A stretch of DNA of 64,000 bases from a virus (taxonomy: Duplodnaviria > Heunggongvirae > Uroviricota > Caudoviricetes): positions 83,930 to 147,929 of the IMG/VR virus record IMGVR_UViG_3300042881_003883; one strand, written 5' to 3'. The translations under genes and the position numbers were made by a program. The notes beneath the pieces were generated by a model, which ran no database searches, had not been told where the DNA came from, and saw only the letters and a program-made list of their open reading frames with translations. Below, one piece after another: positions 2,452 to 60,576 of this stretch (the first letter of the stretch is position 1; each line of letters opens with the position of its first letter).

Positions 2452-2463
2452 TAAATCAATTAA

Positions 2464-5061: not shown

Positions 5062-6357
5062 ATGAATAAACCATTATTAGTATATCAAGCTCCAGTATTC
5101 ACTCGAAGTGGTTATGGTGACCATGCGAGAGATATCTTACGAAGCTTATTTGAAATGGATAAGTACGATGTTAAAGTTGTACCAACCAGATGGGGAAATA
5201 CTCCACAAAATCAAGTTGACCAAACAACTGAATTTGGTAAAAAGGTATTTGCAAATGTAATTACCGAATTGAACCGAAAGCCGGATATCTTTATGCAGAT
5301 GTCCGTTGCTAATGAATTTGAAGCAAAGGGTAATTTTAACATTGGTATTACTGCTGGTGTAGAAACTACTATTTTACCAAAGGAATTTATTGATGGTTCA
5401 AATAAAATGGATATGGTTATAGTACCATCTCAATTCACAAAGAATTTGATGTTAGGTACTGCATATCAAGAAAAAAATAATCAAACGGGGCAGATAGTAA
5501 ATGAGTTCAGAATTAGTAAACCAGTTGAAGTTTTGTTCGAAGGTGTAAATACTGAAATTTACTCAAACCCGGTCAACTCATTAACTGAGTTAGATAAATT
5601 AGAAACTGATTTTAATTTCTTATTTGTTGGGCATTGGTTAAAGGGAAATTTAGGGCAAGATAGGAAAGATGTAGGTATGGTTATTAAAACATTCGCTACA
5701 GTATTCAAATATCTACCTAAAGATAAAAGACCTGGTCTTATTATGAAAACCTCACATGCTGGATTTTCAGTAATGGATAGAGAAGCTACAAGAGATAAGA
5801 TTGATAATATATTAAAACCATTTGGTAAGGATGCACCTAAAGTATATCTTTTACATGGTGATTTAACTGATGATGAAATGGCATCATTATACCATCATCC
5901 AAAAGTTAAAGCAATGGTTTCATTTACTAAAGGTGAAGGATATGGTAGACCATTAGCTGAATTCACTATGACCGGTAAACCAATTGTTGTTTCTGGGTGG
6001 AGCGGACAAATGGATTTCTTACCAAAAGAACACACTATATTTTTAGAGGGTTCATTAACAAATATTGATGAATCCGCAGTTGATACATTTATATTAGCAA
6101 ATGCACAATGGTTTAGTGTAAACTACTCAGATGCGGCCAACAAATTATATAAGGTATTTAATGATTACGATGTACATTTAAAACAATCGGCTGGATTAAA
6201 ATCCAACACATTAAAGAATTTTACATTAGAAAAAATGCATGAAGTTTTTAAACAAATGATGGAAAGATATGAAAAGGGAATACCGCAGGTAAAACCATTC
6301 AACCTACCAAATTTAAACAAAAACAAAATGGAATTACCTAAACTAAATAAAGTATAA
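5062..6357 (+). CDS. glycosyltransferase, GT4-like (GT-B)
   Basis: TKGEGYGRPLAEFTMTGKPIVVS motif analogous to GT4 EX7E. Confidence 0.6.
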   Translation: MNKPLLVYQAPVFTRSGYGDHARDILRSLFEMDKYDVKVVPTRWGNTPQNQVDQTTEFGKKVFANVITELNRKPDIFMQMSVANEFEAKGNFNIGITAGVETTILPKEFIDGSNKMDMVIVPSQFTKNLMLGTAYQEKNNQTGQIVNEFRISKPVEVLFEGVNTEIYSNPVNSLTELDKLETDFNFLFVGHWLKGNLGQDRKDVGMVIKTFATVFKYLPKDKRPGLIMKTSHAGFSVMDREATRDKIDNILKPFGKDAPKVYLLHGDLTDDEMASLYHHPKVKAMVSFTKGEGYGRPLAEFTMTGKPIVVSGWSGQMDFLPKEHTIFLEGSLTNIDESAVDTFILANAQWFSVNYSDAANKLYKVFNDYDVHLKQSAGLKSNTLKNFTLEKMHEVFKQMMERYEKGIPQVKPFNLPNLNKNKMELPKLNKV

Positions 6358-6842
6358 TGGCAACTACTCCAAATCAGGCAATAAAGTATAAACCACTAAT
6401 ATTAGAAGAAAAACGTGTATCCCGTTCGGCTGTACAGCCGTATGGGGTATATCGTATATCTACTTACAAATATGCGGATGGTAATAAGGAATCCCTAAGT
6501 GGAGCCGATTCAACTATTATATTCGTAACGGGAATATATGAACAAAAGTTCTCAGCAATTAAATTATCATCAATTAAACCGGAAGATTTTTTCAAATGGT
6601 TTAAGAAATTGGAAGATAAAGCTAATAAAGTTTTAAATGAACAAAAAACTACAAATGTTGGATTATATGATATAGCAACTGTATATGATAGAGGTGGAGA
6701 ACGTATCTATAATAGTTACGTTAAAACTGGTATTGAATTAAAAAAGATTGAAAATCCATATCGTACATATAACAAAGATGGGATTCAATATATGAGTGAA
6801 GTATTTTTTAAGAAAAATGTATTAGAAGAATATTATGGTTAA
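6357..6842 (+). CDS. hypothetical protein (glycan locus)
   Basis: ORF tightly packed in operon; no recognisable motifs. Confidence 0.5.
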   Translation: MATTPNQAIKYKPLILEEKRVSRSAVQPYGVYRISTYKYADGNKESLSGADSTIIFVTGIYEQKFSAIKLSSIKPEDFFKWFKKLEDKANKVLNEQKTTNVGLYDIATVYDRGGERIYNSYVKTGIELKKIENPYRTYNKDGIQYMSEVFFKKNVLEEYYG

Positions 6843-24399: not shown

Positions 24400-24666
24400 A
24401 TGAGTAAAGAAAAATCTTTGGTTACAGTTTATGTTAAAAATGGTGATATAAATAAAGCTCTTAAGATATTCAAAAACAAAACATTTGAATCAGGTCATCT
24501 TTTGGAGTTGAGAGATAGGAAGGAATTTACTAAACCAACTACTAAAAGGAGAAAGCAAATGAAAGATGCTATTCGTAGGCAAGAATTATTAACTATATTG
24601 GATAAAATATCCAATGGAGATACAACAATAAAGGTTCCGGAAAAGAAAGTTAAAAATAAAAAGTAA
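24400..24666 (+). CDS. rpsU: 30S ribosomal protein bS21 homolog (phage-encoded)
   Basis: 88 aa basic protein; RDRKEFTKPTTKRRKQMKDAIRRQ corresponds to the S21 R..E.YEKPSE.RKR...A signature. Confidence 0.75.
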   Translation: MSKEKSLVTVYVKNGDINKALKIFKNKTFESGHLLELRDRKEFTKPTTKRRKQMKDAIRRQELLTILDKISNGDTTIKVPEKKVKNKK

Positions 24667-24693: not shown

Positions 24694-27204
24694 ATGGCAG
24701 CAAGTATAAAAATATCAGATTTAAGTCAGTTAGTATCAGGTTCCATAGTTGGTACAACTAAGATACCAGTTGTGGATGGTGGGACAACGTTATATGCACA
24801 GGCATCATCTATAAAAGCATACGTTAGTTCGGATTTAGCAACGGATGCTGAATTAGCATCGCAAATATCAGCGGTTAACTCCACCATTAGTGGATTAACA
24901 ACTGCTAATATCTCTGAGAACGCATCTTATAAATATTATACCGATGCTAGGGTAACTGATAGATTAAACGTACTTAATGTATTATCTGGTTCATCTACTT
25001 CATTGATTGTTTCTGATGGAAGTACAAACGTAACTGCTGTTGATAAAATTACATTTAATAATGCAACTGTTTTCAATGCTGGTAGTGGTGATGTGACTGT
25101 AACTGTACCATCTTCATTAACTGTTGGTAATGGTTCAGGAATACCTATTAGTAGTGTTGATACTATTACATTTCCAGGCGCAACAATTGCTGATAACACT
25201 AATGGTGATATAACTGTTACTATATCAGGTACAGCTACGAATATATCTGCATTAAATTCATTCACATCATCAGCAAATTCATCTATTAATTCAATTAATT
25301 CAACTACTGGTTCTATTAATTTAACTACTGGTTCTATTAATTCATTTACTGGTTCTATTAGAGGTGAGGTTAATAGTATTGAAGCATATACTTCATCATT
25401 AAAAGCAGCATCTATTGTATCATCATCACAACAAATAACTAATTTAGGTTTTTTAAGTAGTTCATTTGGTCTAATATCATCATCACAACAAATAAGTGAT
25501 TTTGGGTTTATAAGCGCATCTGGTGGTACAACAATTCCTCAGGGGACTGTTTCTGGTTCTCAACAAATAGTTGGTTTAGGATTTGTAACTACAAGTTCAT
25601 TAGCAACTGGGCCAAATTTCCATATAATATCACAATCTATAATAGCTACTGACCCTATTGATTCTAATTTATTATTATCATCGGTATATGTAGATAAAAC
25701 CAGAACAATAACATTTTCACAATTTTCAGCATCGTTAGATTCTAGGTTTGGAGCTGGTGGTGGTTCTGATTATATTTCAAATGTTACATTTGGTAATAAT
25801 AGATTAACATTTACTGGGGTTGGTTCAGCATTTAATGATTTTGTTCAATTTCCAAATGGATTGGTATCATCATCCGCACAATTAAATGGATTTGGATTCC
25901 TTACATCAACAGATGTTAATTCAACATACATAGTTAATAGATTACCAAGCGGAGTTATTAGTGGTTCAACTCAAATAACTAATTTAGGATTTGCAACAAC
26001 ATCATCTTTGATTGGTAATGGGTTTATATCATCATCCGCACAAATTACATTAACAAATTCTAACACTGGTGGATTTGATACATCCTATGTTGCTGAAAAT
26101 GTAAATTATAAATATTATACTGATGCTAGAGTTCAAAATGTACTAAATGGATTAACATTAGTATCTGGTTCATTCGGATTACCATCTGGTTCGGTTAGTT
26201 CATCATCTCAAATAGATTACCAACTAATATATAACAAACCAGTATTCTATACTGGTTCTAATAATGTTTTTATTACATCTGGCTCCTCTGGATATAGTAG
26301 TCCTTGGGTTATTATTGAGGTACTATCACCTACATTAACTCAATTTTCATCATTAGTATCATCGATTAGTAGTTCATTATTAACTAATGGTATAGTATCA
26401 TCATCAACACAAATATCCAATTTAGGATTTGTGAGTAACGGAAGTTTAGCAGGATTAAATAATTGGACGGGTTCAAGTGGTGGATTTGGGTTAACATCAT
26501 CATCATTAGCAAGTAGAATTGTTAATTTATCAAATGTAGTATTAACCGCATCTGCACAAATTGATTATGATTTTATTCAAAATACACCAACATTCGCACC
26601 TGGAGATGGTATTTTAATATCTCAAAGTTTAGAGAACGCAATTACTATAACAAATAACGCATCGGCACCTACGTGGAATAGTATAACATCAAAACCAAAT
26701 AATTTGGTATCATCATCATTACAAGTAGATGGATATAATTTATTTGCTAAGACTGGTTCTACAAATACATTCTATGGTAATCAAACTGTAAATGGTGAAG
26801 TTCAAACTACCGATTTAACTGTAACTGGTATTAGTGACTTTCAAGGAGCAGCTACCTTTGCTGGTACATCTACATTTAATAACCCTGTTATTAATGAAAT
26901 AACAGCCATATCAGTAAATGGATTTACGGCATCTTTAGATTTTAGTATAGGTAATTTATTTGAAATAAATTTAGACGGAAATGCTATAACACACATATCA
27001 GCTAGTAATATATCATTCGGTCAAACTGCAACGGTATTAATTACAACTGCTAATCAATCTACTGCATCATTTAGTTCAAACGTAAGACAACCATTTGGTT
27101 CATTCTACACCGCATCTTTGGTTGGTAGTATTGATATTATAACACTTACAAAATTCAATTCTACTGATGTTTATGTAACTTCGGTAAAAAATAATTTTGT
27201 ATAA
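24694..27204 (+). CDS. tail fiber / receptor-binding protein, Ser/Thr-rich with internal repeats
   Basis: 836 aa, ~30% Ser/Thr; repeated (S/G)S(S/T)QQI(T/S)xLGF peptide at least 7 times; duplicated ENxxYKYYTDARV module; 21-bp DNA tandem repeat around 25300-25365. Confidence 0.7.
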   Translation: MAASIKISDLSQLVSGSIVGTTKIPVVDGGTTLYAQASSIKAYVSSDLATDAELASQISAVNSTISGLTTANISENASYKYYTDARVTDRLNVLNVLSGSSTSLIVSDGSTNVTAVDKITFNNATVFNAGSGDVTVTVPSSLTVGNGSGIPISSVDTITFPGATIADNTNGDITVTISGTATNISALNSFTSSANSSINSINSTTGSINLTTGSINSFTGSIRGEVNSIEAYTSSLKAASIVSSSQQITNLGFLSSSFGLISSSQQISDFGFISASGGTTIPQGTVSGSQQIVGLGFVTTSSLATGPNFHIISQSIIATDPIDSNLLLSSVYVDKTRTITFSQFSASLDSRFGAGGGSDYISNVTFGNNRLTFTGVGSAFNDFVQFPNGLVSSSAQLNGFGFLTSTDVNSTYIVNRLPSGVISGSTQITNLGFATTSSLIGNGFISSSAQITLTNSNTGGFDTSYVAENVNYKYYTDARVQNVLNGLTLVSGSFGLPSGSVSSSSQIDYQLIYNKPVFYTGSNNVFITSGSSGYSSPWVIIEVLSPTLTQFSSLVSSISSSLLTNGIVSSSTQISNLGFVSNGSLAGLNNWTGSSGGFGLTSSSLASRIVNLSNVVLTASAQIDYDFIQNTPTFAPGDGILISQSLENAITITNNASAPTWNSITSKPNNLVSSSLQVDGYNLFAKTGSTNTFYGNQTVNGEVQTTDLTVTGISDFQGAATFAGTSTFNNPVINEITAISVNGFTASLDFSIGNLFEINLDGNAITHISASNISFGQTATVLITTANQSTASFSSNVRQPFGSFYTASLVGSIDIITLTKFNSTDVYVTSVKNNFV

Positions 27205-31727: not shown

Positions 31728-33217
31728 TAAATTACGTTTACATAAAAATACCAGCATCCGATTTTGGGTTATTTGAAAATTTATTTCATGGCAAAAGAGC
31801 CAATGAATACAAAATACATTCAGCAGGACATAGTTGGAACTATCCTACTAAAATAAAAGGTTGGCAAGATTGGGATTACCCACAACAAACACCTAATATA
31901 TTTAGAGATGTAGCTACATTTAAGTTAAGTCCAAATGATGTATTTATTACAACTATTAGAAATCCATTTAATATTTTGGTAGATTATTATAAAGAAAACT
32001 GGGCTAATCTAAAGACTCATTATAATCTAGCTGATATAAATTCAGTTGATGATTTCCAAAAATTTGTGGATATCTATCTAAATAAATCTATTGTATTTCA
32101 TGCACCCGCATTTCGTAACTCAATGTTTTCACAATTAAAGGATATCAATGGTAATTGGTTATTTGATGATAATAGTATTATAATAAGGAGTGAATATATT
32201 AATGAGGATTTAGCTAAATTCTCAGAAACAATAAATTTACCAATATCGCTTGAATTCACACAACCAAAGGTTGATAACGTTATAACATATAGAGATGACC
32301 AAATTGAGAGATTAACAAAATTATGGAAATCTGACTTGGATTATTTCGGATATTCATTTAATAAATCAGAAATGAACACAAAAAAACAAACTAACAGTTT
32401 ACATAAGCCAAAGATAGCATTGTGTTTCTCTGGTGAAATAAGAGATTTAGATAGAACTAAGGAGTATTGGGGTGAATTGATTAAGAAGTATGACATTGAT
32501 GTATATGGTTCATTCTGGGACACTTATAATACTGAATGTGGTGATACTATTGAAAACTTTCATAGGATATACAATGTTAAGAAGGTGGAGGTTGAAAATT
32601 ATAATTCATTTAATGAATCTACCTTATCTATTCTAAGAATTGGTATTGAACCACCAACTTCATTATTGTATTTTTTAAGAGATTCCTGTGTGAACTTTGG
32701 TACAATGAGTATGTGGTACAAAATTTGGAGAGCAAATTTATTAACAAAGGATTTGGGTATTGATTATGATATTGTAATAAGAGCTAGAACTGATACTTAT
32801 TTTGATGATAATTTAGATATATCCATTAATGATATGTTAAATTTACCACATGGTAGGGTTAGGTTAAATAATCACGATAAATCGGAGGGTATATCGGACC
32901 TATTTGCATATGGTTCACCAAAGATGATGGATTATTATTCAACGTGCTATTTTTTCATAATGAATTATTTAACTGAAGGGTATTATTTGGTTCCACATGA
33001 GCATATGTTGCATATTCATATGAACAAAATAAACGTTCCAATTAGATTTATGGTTAATAACATAACAATCACAAGAACATCCAGAGGAACTGAGGATGAA
33101 GTATATTGTAATGGTGTTGATATAAATGAAGAGATTTTACAATCGGATTTTATGGAACTGGAACCACAAAAAGATTTATTCTACAAAGCAAATATTAAAG
33201 AAAAATTCAAAATATGA
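31724..33217 (+). CDS. two-domain protein: sulfotransferase-like N-terminal region plus C-terminal domain paralogous to the 12630..13355 product
   Basis: ITTIRNPFNILVDYY resembles the sulfotransferase 3'-PB motif RNPxD..Y; C-terminal KIALCFSG...DIDVYGSFWD...DIVIRARTD paralogy. Confidence 0.5.
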   Translation: MINYVYIKIPASDFGLFENLFHGKRANEYKIHSAGHSWNYPTKIKGWQDWDYPQQTPNIFRDVATFKLSPNDVFITTIRNPFNILVDYYKENWANLKTHYNLADINSVDDFQKFVDIYLNKSIVFHAPAFRNSMFSQLKDINGNWLFDDNSIIIRSEYINEDLAKFSETINLPISLEFTQPKVDNVITYRDDQIERLTKLWKSDLDYFGYSFNKSEMNTKKQTNSLHKPKIALCFSGEIRDLDRTKEYWGELIKKYDIDVYGSFWDTYNTECGDTIENFHRIYNVKKVEVENYNSFNESTLSILRIGIEPPTSLLYFLRDSCVNFGTMSMWYKIWRANLLTKDLGIDYDIVIRARTDTYFDDNLDISINDMLNLPHGRVRLNNHDKSEGISDLFAYGSPKMMDYYSTCYFFIMNYLTEGYYLVPHEHMLHIHMNKINVPIRFMVNNITITRTSRGTEDEVYCNGVDINEEILQSDFMELEPQKDLFYKANIKEKFKI

Positions 33218-33900
33218 AAAAGTTTATTTTTATAACCATTTCCGTAGTATTACTACCAATATTTGGATATTCTCAAACCAAATTGGACTCACTTGATTTT
33301 GATAAGTACATACATTCAATTACAGGTAGGTTTTCAACTAAATACCATTCAACCATTGATACCACCAGAGGTGATGTATTAGTAAGGACTGTAGAGTATG
33401 ATACACATGATGAAGCGACTCTAATCTATACTCAGCAAGGTGAACTAATTGAGGGTAAGTACTATCCATATAGACAACGTATATACGCAATATACCAAAT
33501 TGATGATTATTACATTGGTTTAAACATATTCTCAATACCAAATGAAGTTGATTTTTGGAATGTACTAACTGATACCAAAGTTGCGTCTGGTAAGTTTAAT
33601 TTAGATGATATAACATTTAAAGTTGATACCAACAAACTAAAGGCACTTGCCATCTATGACCTACCATATAAAGTGGGGTGTGATATAAAGATATACAAAG
33701 ATAACTTAGGGGCATTTAGAGGTAGTACCAATGAATCGGATTGTAAAGGCTCATTTAAGGGAGCAACCTACACTACAACTGAGTTTGTAATATACCAACA
33801 CGAAGTTATTAGTTGGGAGAGGGGTTGGGATGATTCTGGAACTCAAATATGGGGGCCAAAAACAGGTCCATATATCTACTCAAAAGTTGCAAATCACTAA
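33214..33900 (+). CDS. secreted protein (signal peptide)
   Basis: N-terminus MKKFIFITISVVLLPIFGYSQ, a typical Bacteroidetes signal peptide. Confidence 0.55.
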   Translation: MKKFIFITISVVLLPIFGYSQTKLDSLDFDKYIHSITGRFSTKYHSTIDTTRGDVLVRTVEYDTHDEATLIYTQQGELIEGKYYPYRQRIYAIYQIDDYYIGLNIFSIPNEVDFWNVLTDTKVASGKFNLDDITFKVDTNKLKALAIYDLPYKVGCDIKIYKDNLGAFRGSTNESDCKGSFKGATYTTTEFVIYQHEVISWERGWDDSGTQIWGPKTGPYIYSKVANH

Positions 33901-34106: not shown

Positions 34107-34127
34107 GAAAATCGTAAGATTTTTAAG

Positions 34128-34204
34128 AAAACCCTTGTTTATATCAAATATTATTCGTATATTAGACAGGTAATTGAGAGAGTAATTAATCAAACCCCTA
34201 ATAT
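34128..34204 (+). promoter_or_regulatory. repeated promoter-leader cassette, copy B
   Basis: cTTGTTTATATCAaatATTATTCGTATATTAGACAGGTAATTGAGAGAGTAATTAATCAAACCCCTAAtat then ATG. Confidence 0.6.
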
Positions 34205-34345
34205 ATGAAACCAAAAAACACCCTTCCAACCCACAGACGATTGTTAATCGAGTCGATGGAACTACTTTTTAGTGGTAAAAAAACCAAAGCTAAAAAGACA
34301 CTAAAACAAGCCAAATTAGAGATTGATAAATTTTATCAAAAATAA
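34205..34345 (+). CDS. small basic hypothetical protein (46 aa)
   Basis: ORF immediately after cassette copy B; not in supplied track. Confidence 0.35.
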   Translation: MKPKNTLPTHRRLLIESMELLFSGKKTKAKKTLKQAKLEIDKFYQK

Positions 34346-34351
34346 CTTCAA

Positions 34352-34429
34352 TTTTATTTGGATATCTCAGGTATTTGTCGTATATTTGAGTATAAGATTA
34401 AGAGATAAATTAATTAAAACCCTAAAAAT
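34352..34429 (+). promoter_or_regulatory. repeated promoter-leader cassette, copy A
   Basis: ...TTCGTATATTTGAGTATAAGATTAAGAGATAAATTAATTAAAACCCTAAAAAT then ATG 34430. Confidence 0.6.
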
Positions 34430-36547
34430 ATGAGTAAATTTAAAAAGTACGGAAATTCTTCTTATTGGTTAAAGGACTGGGAAGATGATGACATCATTGT
34501 TAATCAAATGAATGATGTGGAACGTAAATCACATGACCTTTACAAATTAGCCGCTTCTAAACGAGCTATCTCCAACTTCGTTAATATCGTTACCAACGAT
34601 TCAATTCCTGTTAAATTTAGTACACGTGGTGATTCCTATACCGATGGTAAGACTGTGGTAATTGGTTCACAAATCGTAGACCCTAAGGATTTTGATGTGG
34701 CTGTTGGATTAGCATTGCACGAAGGTTCTCACATTAAACTTTCAGATTTTAAAACATTAGGTGATATTTACAATTTGGTTCCATCTCATATTAAAGATGG
34801 GGCAATCAAAAAAGGTATTACTAATCCAATTTCAACTATCAAAGATATTTGGAATGTGGTTGAGGACCGTAGAATTGATTACTACGTTTTTACCTCCGCT
34901 CCGGGTTATAGAGATTACTATCGTTCAATGTACGATAAATACTTTAATGACCCATTAATTGATAAGGGATTAACTTCAGATGAATATACTGAATCAACAA
35001 TTGATTCTTATATGTTCCGAATCATTAACATTCACAACAAAAATACAAACCTTAACGCTTTACCGGGTTTCACCGAAATCTATAAAACAATTGGTTTAGG
35101 TACTATTAACCGATTGAAATCTACCTTAGATACATTTAATGTGGCTATGGAAGTTTTTCAAATTATTCTAAATAACTTACCATCATTATCTGATGGTGAA
35201 GGTGAGGGTACTGGTGGACAGGGTGATTCTGAAGAAAATCAAAATCAAAATGGAAATGGTAATGGTAGTTCAAATGAATCACGTGAAATGAGTGATTCTG
35301 AATTTGATGATTTAATGGATTCATTGGATGGTTCATCTCCAATGACGGGTGATATGGATAGTAAACCAACTGGTGGTTCTTCTATGGAAATTGAAATGCC
35401 TGAAGGTGTTGAGCGTGGTGAAGCAACTGAATCAACTGAAGGTGGTAAGGAATCAAATAAATTAACTCTTAGTGATAACCAAAAAAACCTCCTTAAAAAG
35501 AAAATTCAAAAGCAGAAAGAGTTTATGAGAGGTGAAATTCGTAAAAAATCTATCACTCGAACTGAAGCAAATAATGTTAACGCAATTGAGGAAAGTGGTT
35601 CAGAAATTACTTCAGTTGGTGCTGGTGTTAATGATGGTTGGGGTAACTCTCGAAAGGGTACAACTTGTATAGTAGTTAAGAAACTTACCAAATCATTATT
35701 TGAAAATCAAATGTTCCCAATGACTGATAACAATTGGTACAAACCTGAAGAGACTGGATTGATTAAAATGCATTATGAGACTGAAGTTCAAAATGGAATT
35801 CGAATTGGAACTATATTAGGAAAGAAACTTCAGGTTAGAGGTGAGGACCGTTCTACGGTGTTCAATCGCCAAAAGAATGGTAGTATTGATAAACGAATGA
35901 TTTCATCATTAGGATTTGGTAATGAAAATGTGTTCCAATATATGGAAACCGATTCTTACAAAAAAGCTAACCTACATATCTCAATTGATGCTAGTGGTTC
36001 AATGGGTGGTTCTAAATGGGTTAATACCTTAACCAATGTGGTTGCACTTTGTAAAGCAGTTGATATGATTCAAAACCTATCAATTCAGGTTTCATTCAGA
36101 ACTACACATGGTAATTCACCATATGTGGTTATGGCTTACGATTCTCGTATTGATAAGTTCTCAAAGGTAAAACAAATGTTTCCGGCACTTAGAGCTGGTG
36201 GTACTACTCCTGAGGGATTATGTTTTGAGGCAATTATGAAGAATTTCTTAGGTTCTAATAACGATATGGATTCTTACTTCCTAAACATCTCAGATGGTGA
36301 ACCTTACTTTGAAGGTGGTTCTTTCCGATATAGTGGTGAACCGGCATTCGAACACACTCGTAAAATGGTTAAACAAATCGAAGGAATGGGAATTAAAACT
36401 CTTTCTTACTTTGTAGATGAGTGGTCAAATACAACCGAACCATCTCGAGGATTTAAGAAGATGTATGGTAAGGGAGCTAAGAAAATCGATGTAACAAATG
36501 TGGCTCAAATAACTAAAACAATAAATGAGTTGTTCTTAACAAAATAA
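34430..36547 (+). CDS. CobT-like von Willebrand factor A (VWA) domain protein
   Basis: C-terminal MIDAS DASGSMGG; acidic low-complexity linker GEGEGTGGQGDSEENQNQNGNGNGSS; paired with the CobS-like AAA downstream. Confidence 0.75.
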   Translation: MSKFKKYGNSSYWLKDWEDDDIIVNQMNDVERKSHDLYKLAASKRAISNFVNIVTNDSIPVKFSTRGDSYTDGKTVVIGSQIVDPKDFDVAVGLALHEGSHIKLSDFKTLGDIYNLVPSHIKDGAIKKGITNPISTIKDIWNVVEDRRIDYYVFTSAPGYRDYYRSMYDKYFNDPLIDKGLTSDEYTESTIDSYMFRIINIHNKNTNLNALPGFTEIYKTIGLGTINRLKSTLDTFNVAMEVFQIILNNLPSLSDGEGEGTGGQGDSEENQNQNGNGNGSSNESREMSDSEFDDLMDSLDGSSPMTGDMDSKPTGGSSMEIEMPEGVERGEATESTEGGKESNKLTLSDNQKNLLKKKIQKQKEFMRGEIRKKSITRTEANNVNAIEESGSEITSVGAGVNDGWGNSRKGTTCIVVKKLTKSLFENQMFPMTDNNWYKPEETGLIKMHYETEVQNGIRIGTILGKKLQVRGEDRSTVFNRQKNGSIDKRMISSLGFGNENVFQYMETDSYKKANLHISIDASGSMGGSKWVNTLTNVVALCKAVDMIQNLSIQVSFRTTHGNSPYVVMAYDSRIDKFSKVKQMFPALRAGGTTPEGLCFEAIMKNFLGSNNDMDSYFLNISDGEPYFEGGSFRYSGEPAFEHTRKMVKQIEGMGIKTLSYFVDEWSNTTEPSRGFKKMYGKGAKKIDVTNVAQITKTINELFLTK

Positions 36548-36574
36548 TTCAAATTGTTAATAACTTTATTGAAA

Positions 36575-36669
36575 ATAATTAGAAAAAGGCTTGTTTATCT
36601 CAAGTCTTTTTTGTATATTTGAGTATAAGATTGATAGATAGATTAAATCACTTAAAAAACCCCTAAATT
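36575..36669 (+). promoter_or_regulatory. repeated promoter-leader cassette, copy C (with hairpin AGGCTTGTTTATCTCAAGTCT + T6)
   Basis: GAAAATAATTAGAAAAAGGCTTGTTTATCTCAAG...TATATTTGAGTATAAGATT...AAAAAACCCCTAAATT then ATG 36670. Confidence 0.6.
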
Positions 36670-36894
36670 ATGGCTAAAAGTAAAAAAACGATTGAAGTTA
36701 GTACTATGTTGGATTGGGCTAATGAACAACTAAAACGAACCGATGAGTTCGCTACAGTGGCATTTAAGGCTGGCATTGCCACCACCATTGAAAGAATCCT
36801 ATTCAATACCAATAATTACAAAGGATTTGGGTTTATAGACAACGCAGATTCGGATACTGGTACATTAGGTTATTATAGTCGATTTTATTATTAA
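36670..36894 (+). CDS. small hypothetical protein between CobT- and CobS-like genes
   Basis: 74 aa ORF with its own cassette copy. Confidence 0.45.
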   Translation: MAKSKKTIEVSTMLDWANEQLKRTDEFATVAFKAGIATTIERILFNTNNYKGFGFIDNADSDTGTLGYYSRFYY

Positions 36895-36904
36895 AAAAAG
36901 CAAA

Positions 36905-36999
36905 AATAATTGGCAAAAAGCTTGTTTATATCAGAAATTGTTCGTATATTAGACAGGTAATTGAGAGAGTAATTAATTAAAACCCTAAAATAAATAAAA
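36905..36999 (+). promoter_or_regulatory. repeated promoter-leader cassette, copy D
   Basis: AAAATAATTGGCAAAAAGCTTGTTTATATCAGAAATTGTTCGTATATTAGACAGGTAATTGAGAGAGTAATTAATTAAAACCCTAAAAT. Confidence 0.6.
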
Positions 37000-38208
37000 A
37001 TGAAAGATTTAAAAATTGGATTCGTAGGAAATGAGGTTTACAAAGTAGAAGCTTTTGGTAACTCATTTAAGTTAATTGACACTAAAGGTCAAAAAGTTGG
37101 TACAATGGGTATCGGAACCGGTACTCGTAAAGATGCATTTGAGCAGGGATTGGCTCTTCAGGCATTCGTTCAAAAGAATGGTAAGAAGGTTTTCCGAAAA
37201 GTGGGAATGGAAGTTTATAATAACTTAGTTTCCCCAATGAATACCGATAATGGTGGTGTTCAATTTGAAGATAAAGGTGACCATAACGCAATCAAAGATT
37301 TCATTCACAATAGTTCAATTGATTTGAAACCAATTGAATTGGTGATGACACCTCTAAAGTGGAAATACTTAGTTCGTTCAGCTGTTAGAGCTAAAAACAT
37401 TATGATGACTGGACCTGCTGGTTGTGGTAAAACAATGGCAGCTAAAGCATTGGTTAAAGCACTTGACCGACCTGATTTCTACTTCAACTTAGGAGCAACG
37501 CAAGACCCTCGTGCTACTTTGATTGGTAATACTCACTTTGATAAAAACAAAGGAACTTTCTTCGCTGAATCGGCATTCGTTAAAGCAATTAAAACTCCAA
37601 ACGCTGTGATTCTATTAGATGAGTTGAGTAGAGCTCACCCTGATGCTTGGAACATTTTGATGACCGTTTTAGATGGTGGACAACGTTACTTACGTTTGGA
37701 TGAGGCTGAAGGTTCACCAATTGTTAAAGTGGCTGAAGGTGTTACCTTTATCGCTACCGCTAACATAGGTTCTGAATATACTTCGACTAGGGTAATCGAT
37801 AGGGCTATCTTAGACCGTTTCGTAACTATCGAAATGGATGTTCTAAATGATGAGCAGGAATTTGGATTGTTAAAGTTTATGTTCCCTGAGGTTAATGATT
37901 ATGATTTGAAAGCAATCGCTGAAATCGCTCACCACACTCGAACTCAATCGATGAGTGATTCTGGTAAAGTTACCGCTATGGTATCGACGAGAGCTAGTGT
38001 TGAAATGGCTGGATTAATTTATGATGGATTCGATTTATTCGAATCAGCTGAAATTTCAATCTTCCCATTCTTCTCTAATGATGGTGGTGTAGATTCTGAA
38101 AGAACTTATGTGAAACAACTGGTTCAAAAATATGTTAAAGATACATCAGCAGAAGCTCTTTTTACCGAACAAAAAGAAGAGTTAGTAGATGAAATCCCAA
38201 TGTTCTAA
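37000..38208 (+). CDS. CobS-like / MoxR-type AAA+ ATPase
   Basis: Walker A GPAGCGKT; Walker B ILLDELSRAHPDAWNILMTVLDGG; ~400 aa. Confidence 0.8.
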   Translation: MKDLKIGFVGNEVYKVEAFGNSFKLIDTKGQKVGTMGIGTGTRKDAFEQGLALQAFVQKNGKKVFRKVGMEVYNNLVSPMNTDNGGVQFEDKGDHNAIKDFIHNSSIDLKPIELVMTPLKWKYLVRSAVRAKNIMMTGPAGCGKTMAAKALVKALDRPDFYFNLGATQDPRATLIGNTHFDKNKGTFFAESAFVKAIKTPNAVILLDELSRAHPDAWNILMTVLDGGQRYLRLDEAEGSPIVKVAEGVTFIATANIGSEYTSTRVIDRAILDRFVTIEMDVLNDEQEFGLLKFMFPEVNDYDLKAIAEIAHHTRTQSMSDSGKVTAMVSTRASVEMAGLIYDGFDLFESAEISIFPFFSNDGGVDSERTYVKQLVQKYVKDTSAEALFTEQKEELVDEIPMF

Positions 38209-38230: not shown

Positions 38231-38247
38231 TGGGGGGTAATACCCCC
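38231..38247 (+). other. GC-rich hairpin (GGGGGGT-AAT-ACCCCCC) after the CobS-like stop
   Basis: Perfect 7 bp G/C stem; no T-run follows, so function as a terminator is uncertain. Confidence 0.4.
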
Positions 38248-38280
38248 CTGAATCTCTAAATTCAAAAAAAAAGATTAACT

Positions 38281-45999: not shown

Positions 46000-46026
46000 T
46001 ATCACCTAATAAAAAATAATTAAAGA

Positions 46027-46062
46027 AAAGCTTGGATATACCAAGCTTTTTTTGTATCTTTG
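46027..46062 (+). promoter_or_regulatory. terminator hairpin (AAGCTTGG-ATATA-CCAAGCTT + T6) followed by -7 box TATCTTTG
   Basis: Perfect 8 bp palindromic stem containing HindIII-like AAGCTT; box at 46055-46062. Confidence 0.6.
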
Positions 46063-48263: not shown

Positions 48264-48808
48264 GTAAAATAGTAAATCTATTTGGAGGACCTGGTATTGG
48301 GAAATCATCCATTGCCAATGGTCTTACATATAAGTTAAAAAAGAAACACATAAGTTGTGATAATCCATATGAGTTTCCAAAAGTATTGGCATGGGATGAG
48401 AATCATTCTGCTATCAAAGACCAATTGTATGTACTTGCAAACCAACATAGGGGAATTGTTAAGAGTTATGGGAAGGTTGACTATATTATATTGGATTCAC
48501 CAATTGTATTATCATTGGTATATAAATCAGTATATAAAGGTACTGAGTACCCAGCAACGCTGTATGGTGATTCATTTGATAAAATGGTGTTAGACATTCA
48601 TAATCAATATGATACGCTTAATATCGTTCTAAAACGTTCTGAGGGTGGGTATAATGAAAAGGAAAGGTACCAATCATTGAATGAATCCAAAATGCTGGAT
48701 TTGGAGATAGAAAATACCCTAATTAAACACCATATTCCATTTATTTATGTAGATGTTAACGATGATACTTTAAAAAACATACTAAAATATTTGGATATTC
48801 CAAATTAA
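48260..48808 (+). CDS. P-loop NTPase / nucleotide kinase-like
   Basis: Walker A GGPGIGKSS; ~180 aa, dNK/dNMP-kinase-like size. Confidence 0.55.
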   Translation: MSKIVNLFGGPGIGKSSIANGLTYKLKKKHISCDNPYEFPKVLAWDENHSAIKDQLYVLANQHRGIVKSYGKVDYIILDSPIVLSLVYKSVYKGTEYPATLYGDSFDKMVLDIHNQYDTLNIVLKRSEGGYNEKERYQSLNESKMLDLEIENTLIKHHIPFIYVDVNDDTLKNILKYLDIPN

Positions 48809-48813
48809 TTTCG

Positions 48814-57514: not shown

Positions 57515-57545
57515 CCCCAACCCCGTAAGGTTGGGGATTTTTTGT
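57515..57545 (+). terminator. rho-independent terminator after groEL
   Basis: CCCCAACC-CCGTAA-GGTTGGGG hairpin plus ATTTTTTGTG. Confidence 0.75.
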
Positions 57546-57577: not shown

Positions 57578-57673
57578 GAAAAATAATTGGCAAAAGGCTT
57601 GTTTATATCAGGAATTATTCGTAGGTTTACATAGTAATAAGAGATGATAATTAAACCCCTAAAATTAAAAATT
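57578..57673 (+). promoter_or_regulatory. repeated promoter-leader cassette, copy E
   Basis: GAAAAATAATTGGCAAAAGGCTTGTTTATATCAGGAATTATTCGTAGGTTTACATAGTAATAAGAGATGATAATTAAACCCCTAAAATTAAAAATT. Confidence 0.6.
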
Positions 57674-58015
57674 ATGAACAAAGAGAAATTTAACGAAGTA
57701 TTTGAGAAAAAAGTTGGCTATGATTCAGAGAACAAAAAGTTCTTAATTAGGGTATATCCATCCCTTATCAAAGTAATTAATAATAATCCAAAACCAAAGT
57801 GGGTGGATGTTATTGAGGATATGTTAGGATATAAGAGTAGCGGATATTATTCATCAATCCGTAGATGTTTAAAAGAGATTGATGTATGTACCTATGATAA
57901 AAGTGTAGGTCATTTTGTTAAAGGTTCAAATTGGGATAGGTTCGTATCTAATGAAAATTGGAATTGGTTTATTTGTAAAACAGGTAGTTGTGAACGTTCA
58001 TTTGTTAAAAAATAA
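57674..58015 (+). CDS. hypothetical Cys-containing protein
   Basis: Track start 57644 is an ATG created by a 2-nt insertion inside the conserved leader; ATG 57674 matches the leader-ATG spacing of other copies. Confidence 0.5.
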   Translation: MNKEKFNEVFEKKVGYDSENKKFLIRVYPSLIKVINNNPKPKWVDVIEDMLGYKSSGYYSSIRRCLKEIDVCTYDKSVGHFVKGSNWDRFVSNENWNWFICKTGSCERSFVKK

Positions 58016-58023
58016 TTACGAAA

Positions 58024-58098
58024 TGTCTTGTTTATATCAGGAATTATTCGTATGTTTACAGAGTAATAAGAGATAATTAAACCCCTAAAACTAATAAA
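58024..58098 (+). promoter_or_regulatory. repeated promoter-leader cassette, copy F
   Basis: GTCTTGTTTATATCAGGAATTATTCGTATGTTTACAGAGTAATAAGAGATAATTAAACCCCTAAAACTAATAAA. Confidence 0.6.
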
Positions 58099-58407
58099 AT
58101 GAAAACAAAATTCGAAATCTGGTTAGAAAATGTTAATACTGAGTTAGAAACTGAGTGGAACAATACCTTTACTCACAAAGCTTGGACTCCAATATTACCC
58201 AATAAAGGTAGTAAATTTATTAAAATGATGCATGGAACCACTGTTTGGGGGTTCGTATCAATGGTTGATGGTGAACACTTAGGAGCTCCAATCAAAAAAG
58301 GTGATTTAATGAAACCTGCTAGTTGGAGAGCCGCTGCTAAACATAGTAGAGGTAATATCTTTGATGGAACTGCTAAATATGGTATGTACGGACCTAAATA
58401 CCTATAA
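58099..58407 (+). CDS. hypothetical protein
   Basis: ORF after cassette F. Confidence 0.5.
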   Translation: MKTKFEIWLENVNTELETEWNNTFTHKAWTPILPNKGSKFIKMMHGTTVWGFVSMVDGEHLGAPIKKGDLMKPASWRAAAKHSRGNIFDGTAKYGMYGPKYL

Positions 58408-58805: not shown

Positions 58806-59306
58806 ATGAGAGAGTATATTTTAAGTTATTTACCACAGGTTGTTGAGGAAGCTAATAACAGATTCAAAATTTTCAAATCTGTTGTGGATTATGGTTCCCT
58901 ATCTACTAAGTTGAAATCGGAACTGATATCCAATATGTTAGAAGCATCATTTTCTAAGGTGGTTCCTGAGGTAATATCCCCATTTTCCGATGGTGAACCT
59001 GACCTTTATGTGAAAGGTACCGCATTGGAGATTAAAACCGCTAAAACTACCCATATTTGGAGGGGTGGTGAGTTTTCTAAGAGGGAATCGGACTACCTAT
59101 TGGTATCCTACGATGATTCTGGGGCTGACCTTAAGTGGTTCTTTATACACACCTATCTAATGGAATCCGATTGGAAATCATCAGGAAGCGATTCCTATTA
59201 CGCTACAACGATAGATTTAAACTATGTGATGGAAACCAAAGAATATCAGATTCTTATGGGTAAAATTCAGAAAAAAAGGGTTAAAAATCACTTAATTTGT
59301 TGTTAA
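58806..59306 (+). CDS. hypothetical protein
   Basis: ORF. Confidence 0.5.
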   Translation: MREYILSYLPQVVEEANNRFKIFKSVVDYGSLSTKLKSELISNMLEASFSKVVPEVISPFSDGEPDLYVKGTALEIKTAKTTHIWRGGEFSKRESDYLLVSYDDSGADLKWFFIHTYLMESDWKSSGSDSYYATTIDLNYVMETKEYQILMGKIQKKRVKNHLICC

Positions 59307-59310
59307 AAAT

Positions 59311-59358
59311 TTGGAAATACCAAATATTATTCGTATATTAGACATATAATTAAGAGAT
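59311..59358 (+). promoter_or_regulatory. repeated promoter-leader cassette, truncated copy G
   Basis: CAAATATTATTCGTATATTAGACATATAATTAAGAGAT then ATG 59359. Confidence 0.5.
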
Positions 59359-59772
59359 ATGATATTAACTAAGGAGTTGGAAAAGTTTATTAATAGTAAG
59401 TTAAAAAAGGTTGCTAAACACTATGGATATAGTAATTTTCAATCAACTTTACCTTATTTGGAAATTATAAAATCGGATGAAATTTGGGCCGATGATGATT
59501 TGGAATTTTATGGTTCAACTACAAAGTCAAAATCTGAAGAGGATAAAGAATTGAAAGGTTGGTATGAGAGTATGGATAATACACTTACTATTGTAATTGA
59601 TAATGTAAAAAATAGGAGAGATTTGGTAAGGACAATCATTCACGAATATCAACATTATTTACAATCACCCTGTTGGATGAGTAGGTATTATAATATGGGT
59701 TATGAATATTCAAACCACCCATATGAAGTTGCAGCATACGCTGAGGAAAATAACTATAAAATGTTTATGTAA
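59359..59772 (+). CDS. small HExxH metallopeptidase-like protein (SprT/WLM-like)
   Basis: IIHEYQHYLQS (HExxH) and downstream conserved aromatic-rich segment. Confidence 0.5.
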   Translation: MILTKELEKFINSKLKKVAKHYGYSNFQSTLPYLEIIKSDEIWADDDLEFYGSTTKSKSEEDKELKGWYESMDNTLTIVIDNVKNRRDLVRTIIHEYQHYLQSPCWMSRYYNMGYEYSNHPYEVAAYAEENNYKMFM

Positions 59773-60177: not shown

Positions 60178-60195
60178 ATGTTGATAACTTTTTTG

Positions 60196-60288
60196 AAAAT
60201 AATTGAAAAAAGGCTTGTAGGTCTCAATTATTTTACTTATATTTGGTTATAAGATTAAGAGATAATTAAACCCCTAAAATTGAAAAAT
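60196..60288 (+). promoter_or_regulatory. repeated promoter-leader cassette, copy H
   Basis: GAAAATAATTGAAAAAAGGCTTGTAGGTCTCAATTATTTTACTTATATTTGGTTATAAGATTAAGAGATAATTAAACCCCTAAAATTGAAAAAT. Confidence 0.6.
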
Positions 60289-60576
60289 ATGAAAAGTAAA
60301 GTAATCACATTAAGTACGGAACCATTAGAATCAACTGTTCGTTATAAGAATTGTGTAATAGTTCCTGCTGGAAATGAGAAGTTTCCATCATTAGTTGAAA
60401 TTGAAAAAGCACCAGTTCGATTAGGTGTTAAAGGTAAAAAGTTCATTAACGCTATGAAGGCTCAATTAACCATTGATGCTATCGGAGCTGAGTTGATGAT
60501 TGGTGGTGGAGTTAAGAAAGTTAAAGAGGAGTTAGATAGTATTGGATTCATAATGGCGCAAGATGCAGCTTTTTAA
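60289..60576 (+). CDS. hypothetical protein
   Basis: Track start 60280 is a TTG inside the leader; ATG 60289 preferred. Confidence 0.5.
   Translation: MKSKVITLSTEPLESTVRYKNCVIVPAGNEKFPSLVEIEKAPVRLGVKGKKFINAMKAQLTIDAIGAELMIGGGVKKVKEELDSIGFIMAQDAAF

What the first reader, a model, noticed from the sequence alone, without database searches (positions are those of the whole stretch)
34128..36999. Repeated ~65-95 bp promoter-plus-conserved-leader cassette upstream of consecutive genes (copies A-D)
Four copies carry the element (GAAAATAATTGGCAAAAAGG)cTTGTTTATATCAGgAATTATTCGTATATT(T/A)G...TAAGAGATAATTAAACCCCTAAAAt, ending 0-10 nt before the ATGs at 34205, 34430, 36670 and 37000. The 5' half has -33-like TTG and -7-like TAnnTT(T/A)G boxes at Bacteroidetes sigma-A spacing. 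The 3' half (AAGAGATAATTAAACCCCTAAAA) would be a shared 5'-UTR. Bacteroidetes lack strong Shine-Dalgarno usage, so a conserved leader may be a translation-initiation enhancer or the target of a phage-encoded RNA-binding or antitermination factor. Structurally the array resembles the PeSL promoter/stem-loop repeats that drive modular gene shuffling in T4-like hyperplastic regions.
Basis: seen in the sequence. Interest (0 to 1): 0.75.

Follow-up and report, generated by a model that had tools for sequence, protein, structure and literature searches.

The report
Repeated phage promoter-plus-leader expression cassette
An uncultured giant phage of Bacteroidetes puts the same ~95-base "promoter plus untranslated leader" unit in front of many of its small accessory genes; this is a new, Bacteroidetes-style version of the regulatory cassettes known from T4-like phages.

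Summary
Eight co-oriented copies of an 80-100 nt cassette fill whole intergenic gaps, from stop codon to ATG. Four lie at 34.1-37.0 kb and four at 57.6-60.3 kb.

All copies share one geometry:
- AAAATAA, then 12 nt, then TTG;
- a 20-nt spacer, then TAnnTT(T/A)(G/A);
- 3-4 nt, then a purine-rich block M1, (G)TAA(GA)TT(A/G)AGAGAT;
- usually a second block M2, TTAAA-C(3-4)-TAAAA, 3-12 nt before the ATG.

By the Flavobacterium spacing rule, M1 is the first ~15 nt of the mRNA. The leaders are predicted to be unstructured and match the host's A-rich start-site rules.

The architecture is conserved upstream of orthologous genes in related giant-phage contigs. It is rare in bacterial genomes. A sister clade has sigma-70-like and Shine-Dalgarno-like signals instead.

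Cassettes flank variable small-ORF slots, and one clean cassette-to-cassette recombination indel was found in relatives.

Best reading: a lineage-specific portable expression cassette read by host RNA polymerase, functionally like a T4 PeSL. Most copies lack the PeSL stem-loop. A role as a phage-specific translation or antitermination signal is untested. The window also encodes an unusual ribosomal protein bS21.

The parts
34116..34204 (+). Cassette A, upstream of a 46-aa ORF (34205-34345). TTG 34135-34137; -7 box TATATTAG 34158-34165; M1 GTAATTGAGAGAG 34170-34182; M2 ATTAATCAAACCCCTAA 34185-34201.
   Evidence: (E 8.6e-18). The ORF has homologs in L062 and L068 (67-72% aa).
34339..34429 (+). 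Cassette B, upstream of a CobT-like vWA protein (705 aa, 34430-36547). AAAATAA 34339-34345 contains the stop codon of ORF A. TTG 34358; box TATATTTG 34381-34388; M1 ATAAGATTAAGAGAT 34392-34406; M2 34413-34427.
   Evidence: (E 4e-15).
36571..36669 (+). Cassette C, upstream of a 74-aa ORF (36670-36894). AAAATAA 36572-36578; TTG 36591; box TATATTTG 36614-36621; M1 variant ATAAGATTGATAGAT 36625-36639; M2 36651-36667. It contains a terminator-like hairpin plus T-run at 36582-36612 that overlaps the -33 element.
   Evidence: (E 3e-14).
36903..36999 (+). Cassette D, upstream of an AAA_5 / CobS-like ATPase (402 aa, 37000-38208). AAAATAA 36903-36909; TTG 36922; box TATATTAG 36945-36952; M1 36957-36969; M2 36976-36990.
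   Evidence: (E 8e-20). The cassette is conserved upstream of orthologs.
57580..57673 (+). Cassette E, upstream of a 113-aa ORF (57674-58015) and downstream of a terminator at 57515-57536. Box TAGGTTTA 57622-57629; M1 GTAATAAGAGAT 57634-57645; M2 57650-57664. An in-frame ATG at 57644 lies inside M1, so the true start codon is ambiguous.
   Evidence: (E 7e-19).
58009..58098 (+). Cassette F, upstream of a 102-aa ORF (58099-58407; PHROG 5014, weak DUF7717 match). Box TATGTTTA 58051-58058; M1 58063-58074; M2 58076-58090.
   Evidence: Homologs in 22 IMG/VR loci lie behind similar cassettes.
59294..59358 (+). Cassette G, the short form, upstream of a 137-aa HExxH-motif protein (59359-59772). TTG 59311; box TATATTAG 59334-59341; M1 ATAATTAAGAGAT 59346-59358 runs straight into the ATG. 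There is no M2.
   Evidence: (E 5e-9). The same M1-then-ATG layout precedes homologs in many IMG/VR contigs.
60195..60288 (+). Cassette H, upstream of a 95-aa ORF (60289-60576). AAAATAA 60196-60202; TTG 60215; box TATATTTG 60238-60245; M1 60249-60263; M2 60265-60279. It shares 81% identity with copy C over 89 nt, starting right after the upstream stop codon.
   Evidence: family D2; E 5e-16.

Best explanation
Each copy is a portable expression cassette of this phage lineage.

**Proposed mechanism**
1. Host RNA polymerase with the Bacteroidetes primary sigma factor binds an extended promoter. The promoter has two A-tracts at about -54/-48 and -42/-38 (UP-element-like), TTG at -35/-33 and TAnnTT(T/A)(G/A) at -12/-5.
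2. Transcription starts at the G of GTAA.
3. The purine-rich block M1, GUAA(GA)UUGAGAGAU, is therefore the first ~15 nt of the mRNA. It most likely acts as an initial transcribed sequence that favours efficient initiation and promoter escape. It may also compensate for the off-consensus -7 box.
4. The rest of the leader is an unstructured, A-rich Flavobacterium-type translation start region (TAAAA; A at -3, -6, -12, -13).
5. The lineage-specific C-run in M2 has no shown role. A single-strand protein docking site, for example for ribosomal protein S1, is a guess.

**Why there are many copies**
- Many small accessory (probably early) genes each carry their own promoter.
- Copies stay alike through selection on the motifs together with duplication and recombination.
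- As a by-product they offer ~100 nt of homology at gene borders, which occasionally mediates gain or loss of a gene, as PeSLs do in T4-like phages.

**Shown:** sequence architecture, orientation, position, conservation, lack of predicted structure, and one recombination product in relatives.
**Inferred:** promoter activity, start site, timing, and the roles of M1 and M2.
For: **Promoter-like architecture**
- All 8 copies are on the gene strand and fill stop-to-ATG gaps with rigid spacing.
- The -33/-7 layout and the 4-5 nt box-to-start rule come from F. johnsoniae data (PMC6847099).
- GTA lies at offset 4 after the box in 21 of 39 TTAG boxes and 11 of 29 TTTA boxes. With TTTG boxes it overlaps the box G (28 of 49). 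GAGAG-like leaders follow 28 of 39 TTAG boxes but only 3 of 49 TTTG boxes.
- M1 is tied to the promoter, not to the ATG: the ATG can follow M1 after 1-2 nt or after 20-35 nt.

**Conservation and host adaptation**
- Among distinct upstream regions of AAA-ATPase orthologs at 75% aa identity or more, 13 of 13 have the promoter, 12 of 13 have M1 and 8 of 13 have M2.
- In the 55-66% clade, 0 of 41 have M2 and 21 of 41 have an SD-like motif, with TTGAC-type -35 boxes. The signals therefore track the host type.
- The promoter half aligns with intergenic promoters of cultured Bacteroidetes phages: immuto, Chryseobacterium phage MA9V-1 and the crAss001 tRNA promoter. AAAATAA is invariant across these.
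- crAss-like phages have host-RNAP 'extended tripartite' promoters.

**Leader properties**
- Leader MFE is 0 to -4 kcal/mol, with z > 0 in 8 of 8 copies.
- All window genes show A enrichment at -13 to -10 and -6 to -3, and no SD enrichment.
- TAAAA is the Flavobacterium start-site motif.
- Purine-rich initial transcribed sequences aid promoter escape at T5 N25 and T7 A1.

**Modularity**
- Variable small-ORF slots lie around the conserved CobT-like/ATPase pair.
- L063 carries one chimeric cassette where L062 has cassette-gene A-cassette.
- Genes driven by this promoter class are mostly 45-200 aa ORFs without annotation.
Against: - There is no transcript data, so promoter activity, start site and timing are all inferred.
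- Five of the 8 copies depart from positions that are nearly invariant in host promoters: A at -6, or A at -5. Copy E also has GG at -10/-9, which is 'virtually zero' in F. johnsoniae. The class may therefore need a phage factor.
- The rule about initial transcribed sequences comes from E. coli RNA polymerase.
- The C-run has no support as a positive translation signal.
- Evidence for concerted evolution is weak: within-genome identity is 0.70 and between-genome orthologous identity 0.67, against 0.61 for shuffled controls.
- Only 1-2 of about 8 indels between L062 and L063 involve promoter cassettes.
- The host is unknown.
Confidence: 0.6

Rival explanations
1. The TTAG/TTTA-box cassettes are a separate temporal class, a 'middle'-type promoter that host polymerase reads poorly on its own. 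A phage-encoded activator, sigma-modifying factor or repressor would bind the conserved DNA at +1 to +17 (M1), much as T4 MotA/AsiA re-targets sigma-70.
For: - Two cleanly separated promoter classes coexist in one genome. Class I has a canonical TAnnTTTG box with a plain A/T leader. Class II has an off-consensus box plus M1 at a fixed register.
- The strict class II pattern is about 5 times more frequent in IMG/VR than in the whole 596-Gb genome set: 52 matches against 10.
Against: - No candidate factor was identified. Pfam scans of about 70% of the window proteins found no sigma, MotA-like or obvious DNA-binding regulator, and the window is only part of the genome.
- The genes driven are small ORFs and host-takeover-like genes, which are typical of early transcription by unmodified host polymerase.
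- Copies B, C and H combine a canonical TTTG box with M1.
- A similar GATTAGAAGATAA follows the crAss001 tRNA promoter.
Confidence: 0.2
2. The shared leader is an RNA-level control site. It could be a translational operator for a phage repressor (T4 RegA-like), a cleavage site for a phage nuclease (RegB-like), or the signal by which ribosomes carrying the phage's own bS21 prefer phage mRNAs.
For: - M2 is strongly associated with first genes of transcription units. It occurs before 25 of 167 promoter-bearing genes and 9 of 762 others.
- Its variant is shared by copies within a genome and differs between genomes.
- The window encodes a bS21 (24400-24666; PF01165, E 4.8e-12). It has Arg where Bacteroidetes and previously described phage bS21 carry the aromatic Tyr54 that helps hide the anti-SD.
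- The literature lists the mRNA determinant of phage-bS21 selectivity as an open question.
Against: - The link is co-occurrence only.
- Published phage bS21 genes are expressed late, with structural genes, whereas these cassettes precede accessory genes.
- M1 and M2 are not complementary to the 16S 3' tail.
- M2's distance to the ATG is variable (0-20 nt), and M2 is absent from copy G and from many relatives.
- No RegA or RegB homolog was seen (the scan was not exhaustive).
Confidence: 0.12
3. The leader is an antitermination (nut/put-like) site that makes polymerase resistant to the many terminators between genes.
For: - In relatives, a 5-7 bp G/C hairpin sits between M1 and M2. Its sequence differs between phages but the fold is kept (MFE -8 to -9.6 kcal/mol, z -1.2 to -2.3). 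This gives a linear box plus hairpin, like boxA/boxB.
- Terminator hairpins overlap some promoters.
Against: - All 8 window leaders lack any stable hairpin.
- Almost every gene here has its own promoter, so read-through is not needed.
- There is no Rfam match.
- No N- or Q-like protein was identified.
Confidence: 0.03
4. The repeats are only recombination scars or selfish duplicated spacers, with no regulatory function beyond chance resemblance to promoters in AT-rich DNA.
For: - The genome is 32% GC.
- Global identities of AT-rich 100-mers are high even after shuffling (0.61).
Against: - Zero matches are expected by chance.
- The strand bias is strict, 48 of 48.
- Spacing is rigid.
- Motif blocks are conserved upstream of orthologs whose proteins have diverged by 11-30%.
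Confidence: 0.03

Closest known systems
PeSL (promoter-early stem-loop) regulatory cassettes of T4-like phages (Arbiol et al. 2010, PMC2839356; Comeau et al. 2014, PMC4122927)
   Same: - A ~100-nt repeated intergenic unit runs from the upstream stop codon, embedded in an AT-rich stretch, through a host-type promoter to the ribosome-binding region and ATG.
- Copies cluster before small ORFs of unknown function in variable regions.
- Related phages differ by gene indels whose product is a single chimeric cassette (L062 versus L063).
   Different: - The promoter is the Bacteroidetes -33/-7 type, not sigma-70.
- There is no Shine-Dalgarno sequence.
- The defining stem-loop terminator is present in only 1 of 8 window copies.
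- A conserved initial transcribed block (M1) and a C-run leader block (M2) have no PeSL counterpart.
- Most indels in the one close pair examined are not at cassettes.
- Mini-circles are untested, and the phage is not shown to be T4-like.
Host-RNA-polymerase 'extended tripartite' middle/late promoters of crAss-like phages (Drobysheva et al., bioRxiv 10.1101/2020.03.07.982082)
   Same: - It is an extended multi-block promoter of phages infecting Bacteroidetes, repeated in intergenic regions in the sense direction.
- The crAss001 tRNA promoter aligns with cassette H (74% over 72 nt), including GAAAATAATT, TTG, TAnnTTTG and a GATTAGAAGATAA stretch.
   Different: - The similarity is weak (E 0.03).
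- No shared C-run leader is present.
- The phage family, gene classes and timing are different.
- The published logo could not be compared, because figures are not held in the library.
Strong early promoters of coliphages (T4 early, T5 N25, T7 A1)
   Same: - The consensus extends beyond the core hexamers.
- A-tracts lie near -42 and -52.
- The initial transcribed sequence is purine-rich and contains GAGAG (own knowledge for the exact T5/T7 sequences; the T7 A1 fragment reads atcgagaggg).
   Different: - The sigma type and host phylum differ.
- The resemblance in the initial transcribed sequence is by analogy only.
Flavobacterium translation initiation region (TAAAA motif; A at -3, -6, -12, -13; PMC6028130, PMC6847099)
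   Same: - The 3' end of the cassette carries TAAAA.
- In D, E and H the A residues fall at all four favoured positions, and in F at three of the four.
- The leaders are unstructured.
   Different: - This motif is used by all genes of the phage and is not specific to the cassette.
- The C-run next to it is not part of the host motif.

Membership tests
Bacteroidetes primary-sigma promoter | -7 element TAnnTTTG (TAHHTTTG), with T-6 and G-5 nearly invariant | tested here: inconclusive
   The box is canonical in B, C and H. It is TTAG in A, D and G, and TTTA in E and F. Copy E also has GG at -10/-9 (host rule).
Bacteroidetes primary-sigma promoter | -33 TTG about 19-21 nt upstream of the -7 element | tested here: met
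   The spacer is exactly 20 nt in 8 of 8 copies.
Bacteroidetes primary-sigma promoter | Transcription starts 4-5 nt after the box and depends on host holoenzyme | not testable with these tools
   This needs 5'-end mapping or in vitro transcription.
PeSL cassette | Repeated ~100-nt intergenic unit running stop codon / AT-rich stretch / host-type promoter / ribosome-binding region / ATG | tested here: met
   The stop codon of ORF A lies inside the AAAATAA of cassette B.
PeSL cassette | Stem-loop terminator/attenuator as part of the unit | tested here: not met
   Only copy C has one (36582-36612). The leaders of all 8 copies are unstructured. Hairpins do occur in the phage's other promoter class and in the leaders of relatives.
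PeSL cassette | Preferentially upstream of ORFans in variable regions | tested here: met
   Six of the 8 cassettes precede ORFs of 46-137 aa with no assigned function: four have no family hit at all, and F and G match only PHROG families of unknown function. The slots around CobT-like/ATPase vary between 15 relatives.
PeSL cassette | Indels between close relatives bounded by cassettes, leaving one chimeric cassette | tested here: inconclusive
   There is one clean case, gene A in L062 versus L063. Six other indels in the same pair lie at tight gene junctions without cassettes. No close relative of the window itself was available.
PeSL cassette | Excised mini-circles | not testable with these tools
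   This needs PCR or sequencing of phage DNA.
Shine-Dalgarno ribosome-binding site | GGAGG-like motif 5-10 nt before the ATG | tested here: not met
   No such motif is present in any copy. In the whole window, 6 of 102 genes have one, against a 10% background.
Flavobacterium-type translation start region | TAAAA(A) core, A at -3/-6/-12/-13, and low structure | tested here: met
   This was read directly from copies B-F and H. Structure prediction is, the genome-wide A profile, and the rules.
Lambda-type nut site / structured leader RNA | Conserved hairpin (boxB) in the leader | tested here: not met
   MFE 0 to -4 kcal/mol, with z +0.25 to +1.36. Rfam gave no match.
crAss-like extended tripartite host-RNAP promoter | Three conserved blocks upstream of middle/late and tRNA genes | tested here: inconclusive
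   The alignment to the crAss001 tRNA promoter is 74% over 72 nt, E 0.03. The published consensus was not available for scoring.

The most novel reading that the evidence does not exclude
The conserved 5' leader (M1 at the mRNA 5' end, with the C-run block M2) is the cis-signal of a phage-specific translation programme. Ribosomes would be remodelled by the phage's own bS21, a variant with Arg in place of the anti-SD-sequestering Tyr54 and with extended tails. These ribosomes, or another phage factor, would preferentially load mRNAs carrying this leader. That would give the first defined mRNA determinant for phage-bS21 selectivity in Bacteroidetes.
Probability: 0.08. Interest if true: 0.85.

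Novelty: new variant of a known kind. Interest (0 to 1): 0.45.

Why it matters
**What it adds**
- It gives a concrete, portable promoter-plus-leader consensus for a large group of uncultured giant phages of Flavobacteriia-like hosts, where no transcription signals have been described.
- It separates two promoter classes in one phage. These are likely temporal or regulatory classes and could be used to annotate early genes in metagenomic phage genomes.
- It extends the idea of 'regulatory cassettes as recombination handles' from T4-like phages of Proteobacteria to Bacteroidetes phages, with a different promoter grammar.

**Practical use**
- The ~95-nt unit is a candidate strong expression cassette for Flavobacterium genetics.

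**Open question it makes testable**
- The same window encodes an atypical bS21. The shared leader is therefore a ready substrate for testing whether phage ribosomal proteins bias mRNA choice, a question raised in PMC9976891.

Tried and rejected
- **Rfam.** The whole window at gathering thresholds, and 34.0-37.1 kb at relaxed E-values, gave nothing relevant. There are no tRNAs.
- **Sigma-70 consensus scan.** Matches were fewer than in shuffles: 16 against 23.3, and 30 against 37.5. This is not a sigma-70 system.
- **SD usage.** Not enriched.
- **Structured leader.** Rejected.
- **Exact leader 17-mer in IMG/VR.** Most of the 58 hits were chance single hits. Only L012, L021 and L038 were true cassettes.
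- **Host origin of the TTAG+GTAA+GAGAG architecture.** There were 10 hits in 596 Gb of genomes, including one clearly cassette-like Cytophagales MAG. The Bacilli and Clostridia hits are TTGACT sigma-70 promoters. I concluded it is not a common host signal, although the pattern was strict.
- **Concerted evolution by global identity.** The signal was too weak against the AT-rich background.
- **Third motif TATATTTATA.** Not enriched overall: 53 against 41.4 ± 6.6.
- **Cultured relatives.** None are close. The best match to the ATPase is Microcystis phage Mel-JY01 at 55.6% aa. The bS21 has no close match among deposited phages.
- **Does gene C travel with its cassette?** No. Its homologs in unrelated smaller phages sit behind a plain canonical promoter.
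- **Pfam search for regulators.** A search for sigma, RegA or antiterminator proteins in about 70% of the window proteins found none.


Full report
**1. Context**

The window is 32% GC, and essentially all genes are on the + strand. Annotated genes include:
- a CobT-like vWA protein and a CobS-like AAA_5 ATPase;
- a DNA ligase, GroES/GroEL, a glycosyltransferase cluster, a DNA methyltransferase and a clamp-loader ATPase;
- a ribosomal protein bS21.

No cultured phage is close. The ATPase has 186 relatives in IMG/VR, and 80 loci were fetched at 60-89% aa identity. Several come from contigs of 200-290 kb. The window is therefore part of an uncultured giant phage.

Three features point to a Bacteroidetes, Flavobacteriia-like host:
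- the promoter grammar (TTG, about 20 nt, TAnnTTTG);
- the lack of SD motifs;
- A enrichment at -13 to -10 and -6 to -3 before start codons (host rules).

**2. The observation**

The four reported copies and four more (E-H) are real.
- Chance expectation for the promoter core is 0.00.
- A profile built from the copies finds only these eight in the window (E 5e-9 to 8e-20). All 48 hits in the window plus relatives are on the coding strand.
- The TTG-to-box spacer is 20 nt in all eight copies. AAAATAA begins 19 nt before TTG in six.
- Each copy occupies the whole gap between a stop codon and the next ATG. In B, the AAAATAA contains the stop codon of ORF A.

**3. Anatomy**

I collected 128 distinct promoter-bearing upstream regions from the window and 27 related loci. 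They fall into two classes.
- **Class I** has the canonical TAnnTTTG box followed at once by TA and a short A/T-only leader. Often a hairpin plus T-run overlaps the -33 element (for example 2456-2482 and 46026-46053).
- **Class II**, the finding, usually has TTAG or TTTA as the last four bases of the box. After four bases comes GTAA(GA)TT(A/G)AGAGAT, which I call M1.

GTA sits at offset 4 in 21 of 39 TTAG boxes and 11 of 29 TTTA boxes. GAGAG-like leaders follow 28 of 39 TTAG boxes but only 3 of 49 TTTG boxes. Those three are likely window copies B, C and H, which are hybrids.

In F. johnsoniae the box spans -12 to -5, and transcripts start 4-5 nt later. M1 should therefore be the first ~15 nt of the mRNA.

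M1 is tied to the promoter and not to the ATG. In copy G and in many IMG/VR cassettes the ATG follows M1 after 1-2 nt. Elsewhere it follows after 20-35 nt.

The second block, M2, reads TTAAA-C(1-4)-TAAAA.
- It lies 0-20 nt from the ATG.
- It is strongly linked to promoter-bearing genes: 25 of 167, against 9 of 762 others.
- Its C-run length is typical of each genome.

**4. Structure**

The eight predicted window leaders are essentially unstructured. MFE is 0 to -4 kcal/mol, and all eight z-scores are positive.

In relatives, a 5-7 bp G/C hairpin of varying sequence is often inserted between M1 and M2, or encloses M1. There the rest of the leader stays unpaired.

**5. Conservation**

I counted distinct upstream regions of ATPase orthologs by identity band.

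| aa identity to window ATPase | promoter | M1 | M2 | SD-like motif |
|---|---|---|---|---|
| 75% or more | 13 of 13 | 12 of 13 | 8 of 13 | 0 of 13 |
| 55-66% (sister clade) | 27 of 41 | 13 of 41 | 0 of 41 | 21 of 41 |

The sister-clade promoters look like the TTGAC-N17/18-TAnnnT type. The cassette therefore behaves as a set of host-adapted expression signals, not as something tied to a particular gene.

Gene C supports this. Its homologs (64% aa) in unrelated smaller phages lie behind a plain canonical promoter.

The strict class II pattern occurs 52 times in IMG/VR but only 10 times in 596 Gb of bacterial and archaeal genomes.

The promoter half alone resembles promoters of cultured Bacteroidetes phages:
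- Flavobacterium phage immuto, 87% over 60 nt;
- Chryseobacterium phage MA9V-1, 77% over 77 nt;
- the crAss001 tRNA promoter, 74% over 72 nt.

AAAATAA is invariant across these. crAss-like phages are known to have extended tripartite promoters read by host polymerase.

**6. Modularity**

In 15 relatives the CobT-like/ATPase pair is constant. The slot between the two genes is empty or holds unrelated ORFs of 46-82 aa. The slot upstream holds unrelated ORFs of 45-89 aa. In the closest relatives these ORFs carry their own cassette.

L062 and L063 are 84-90% identical in DNA. L062 has cassette-gene A-cassette. L063 has one cassette whose left flank matches the first L062 cassette and whose body matches the second. 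A 59-nt stretch of L063 aligns to both. This is the product predicted by the PeSL model.

However, six other indels in the same pair lie at tight gene junctions without cassettes. Cassettes are therefore one recombination substrate among several.

**7. Mechanism**

The best-supported reading is a host-polymerase promoter with these parts:
- UP-like A-tracts;
- a purine-rich initial transcribed sequence, which in E. coli systems favours promoter escape;
- an unstructured A-rich start region matching the host's positive determinants.

In D, E and H the adenines fall at -13, -12, -6 and -3; in F at -12, -6 and -3. The C-run sits either at -10 to -7 or at -18 to -14, which avoids those positions (read; rules).

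The role of the C-run is unknown. C residues at -13 to -11 (a UCCC replacement of -14 to -11) were harmful in F. johnsoniae.

The off-consensus -7 boxes keep open the possibility that a phage factor is needed.

**8. Comparison and novelty**

Functionally the unit works like a PeSL. It fails the stem-loop criterion in 7 of 8 copies, and it uses a different promoter and ribosome-binding grammar. I therefore file it as a new variant of a known kind, not as a PeSL member.

**9. Side finding**

The phage bS21 (24400-24666) aligns with a Bacteroidetes-type bS21 (PDB 9i5v) such that Arg59 replaces Tyr54. Three IMG/VR relatives share the Arg and the long termini. Most other phage bS21 sequences I recovered have Tyr or His at that position; two have Leu or Gly.

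Tyr54 stacks on A1534 and helps hide the anti-SD. All 61 phage bS21 proteins analysed earlier kept an aromatic residue there.

Whether this variant changes mRNA choice, and whether the shared leader is involved, is open. SD motifs are not enriched in this window.

Noticed in passing
window 24400-24666 (+): There is a phage-encoded ribosomal protein bS21 (PF01165, E 4.8e-12). It has Arg59 at the position of the Bacteroidetes signature Tyr54, which helps sequester the anti-SD, and it has extra N- and C-terminal tails. Three IMG/VR relatives (L223-L225) share the Arg. Most other phage bS21 sequences recovered have Tyr or His there; two (L226, L231) have Gly or Leu.
   Followed up: partly
window 2456-2482, 46026-46053, 48788-48812, 36582-36612: Terminator-like hairpin plus T-run overlaps the -33 TTG of the next promoter (for example AAAGTTTGGAAAATCCAAACTTTTTTT). 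These are compact terminator/promoter composites, found mainly in the canonical (class I) promoters.
   Followed up: partly
window 38232-38248: A perfect GGGGGG-TAATA-CCCCCC hairpin lies just after the ATPase gene, flanked by GAGAT/ATCTC and with no T-run on the + strand. It resembles the G/C hairpins found in the leaders of relatives.
   Followed up: no
L086-L139 (upstream of the ATPase ortholog): In a sister clade at 55-66% aa identity, the same gene carries TTGAC-type sigma-70-like promoters and AAAGGA SD-like leaders instead of the cassette. This suggests a shift in host phylum within one phage gene family.
   Followed up: partly
window 59359-59772 (+): Gene G encodes a 137-aa protein with an HExxH motif (IIHEYQHYLQSP). 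Homologs in many IMG/VR contigs keep the unusual layout in which the ATG follows M1 after 1-2 nt.
   Followed up: partly
window 20243, 27730, 41501, 45515 (+); L142, L144 and L150 at about 5100-5220 and 6440-6540: There may be a third promoter-like motif, TATATTTATA, just upstream of some genes. In relatives it follows a strong terminator and precedes leaders with a true SD-like AAGGAGA. It is not statistically enriched in the window (53 against 41.4 ± 6.6).
   Followed up: partly
window 57644 versus 57674: In cassette E an in-frame ATG lies inside M1 (AGAGATGATAATTAAACCCC...), with no stop before the ATG at 57674. The start of ORF E is therefore ambiguous.
   Followed up: no
window 24694-27204 (+), repeats at 25276-26734: The 836-aa ORF after bS21 contains several internal repeat families (21-nt tandem units and ATCATCATC...ACAA modules). 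It matches no PHROG family.
   Followed up: no
window 33214-33900 (+): There is a CpeT/CpcT-family (DUF1001) protein, E 3.9e-20. This is a family of cyanobacterial bilin lyases, which is odd in a phage with Bacteroidetes-type signals.
   Followed up: no
L062 versus L063 (for example L062 11975/L063 11974-12181; L062 15391-16330): Many single-gene indels between these two relatives, about 87% identical, occur exactly at tight gene junctions of the form (A)TAATATGA. This suggests microhomology at overlapping stop/start signals as a second route of gene shuffling.
   Followed up: partly
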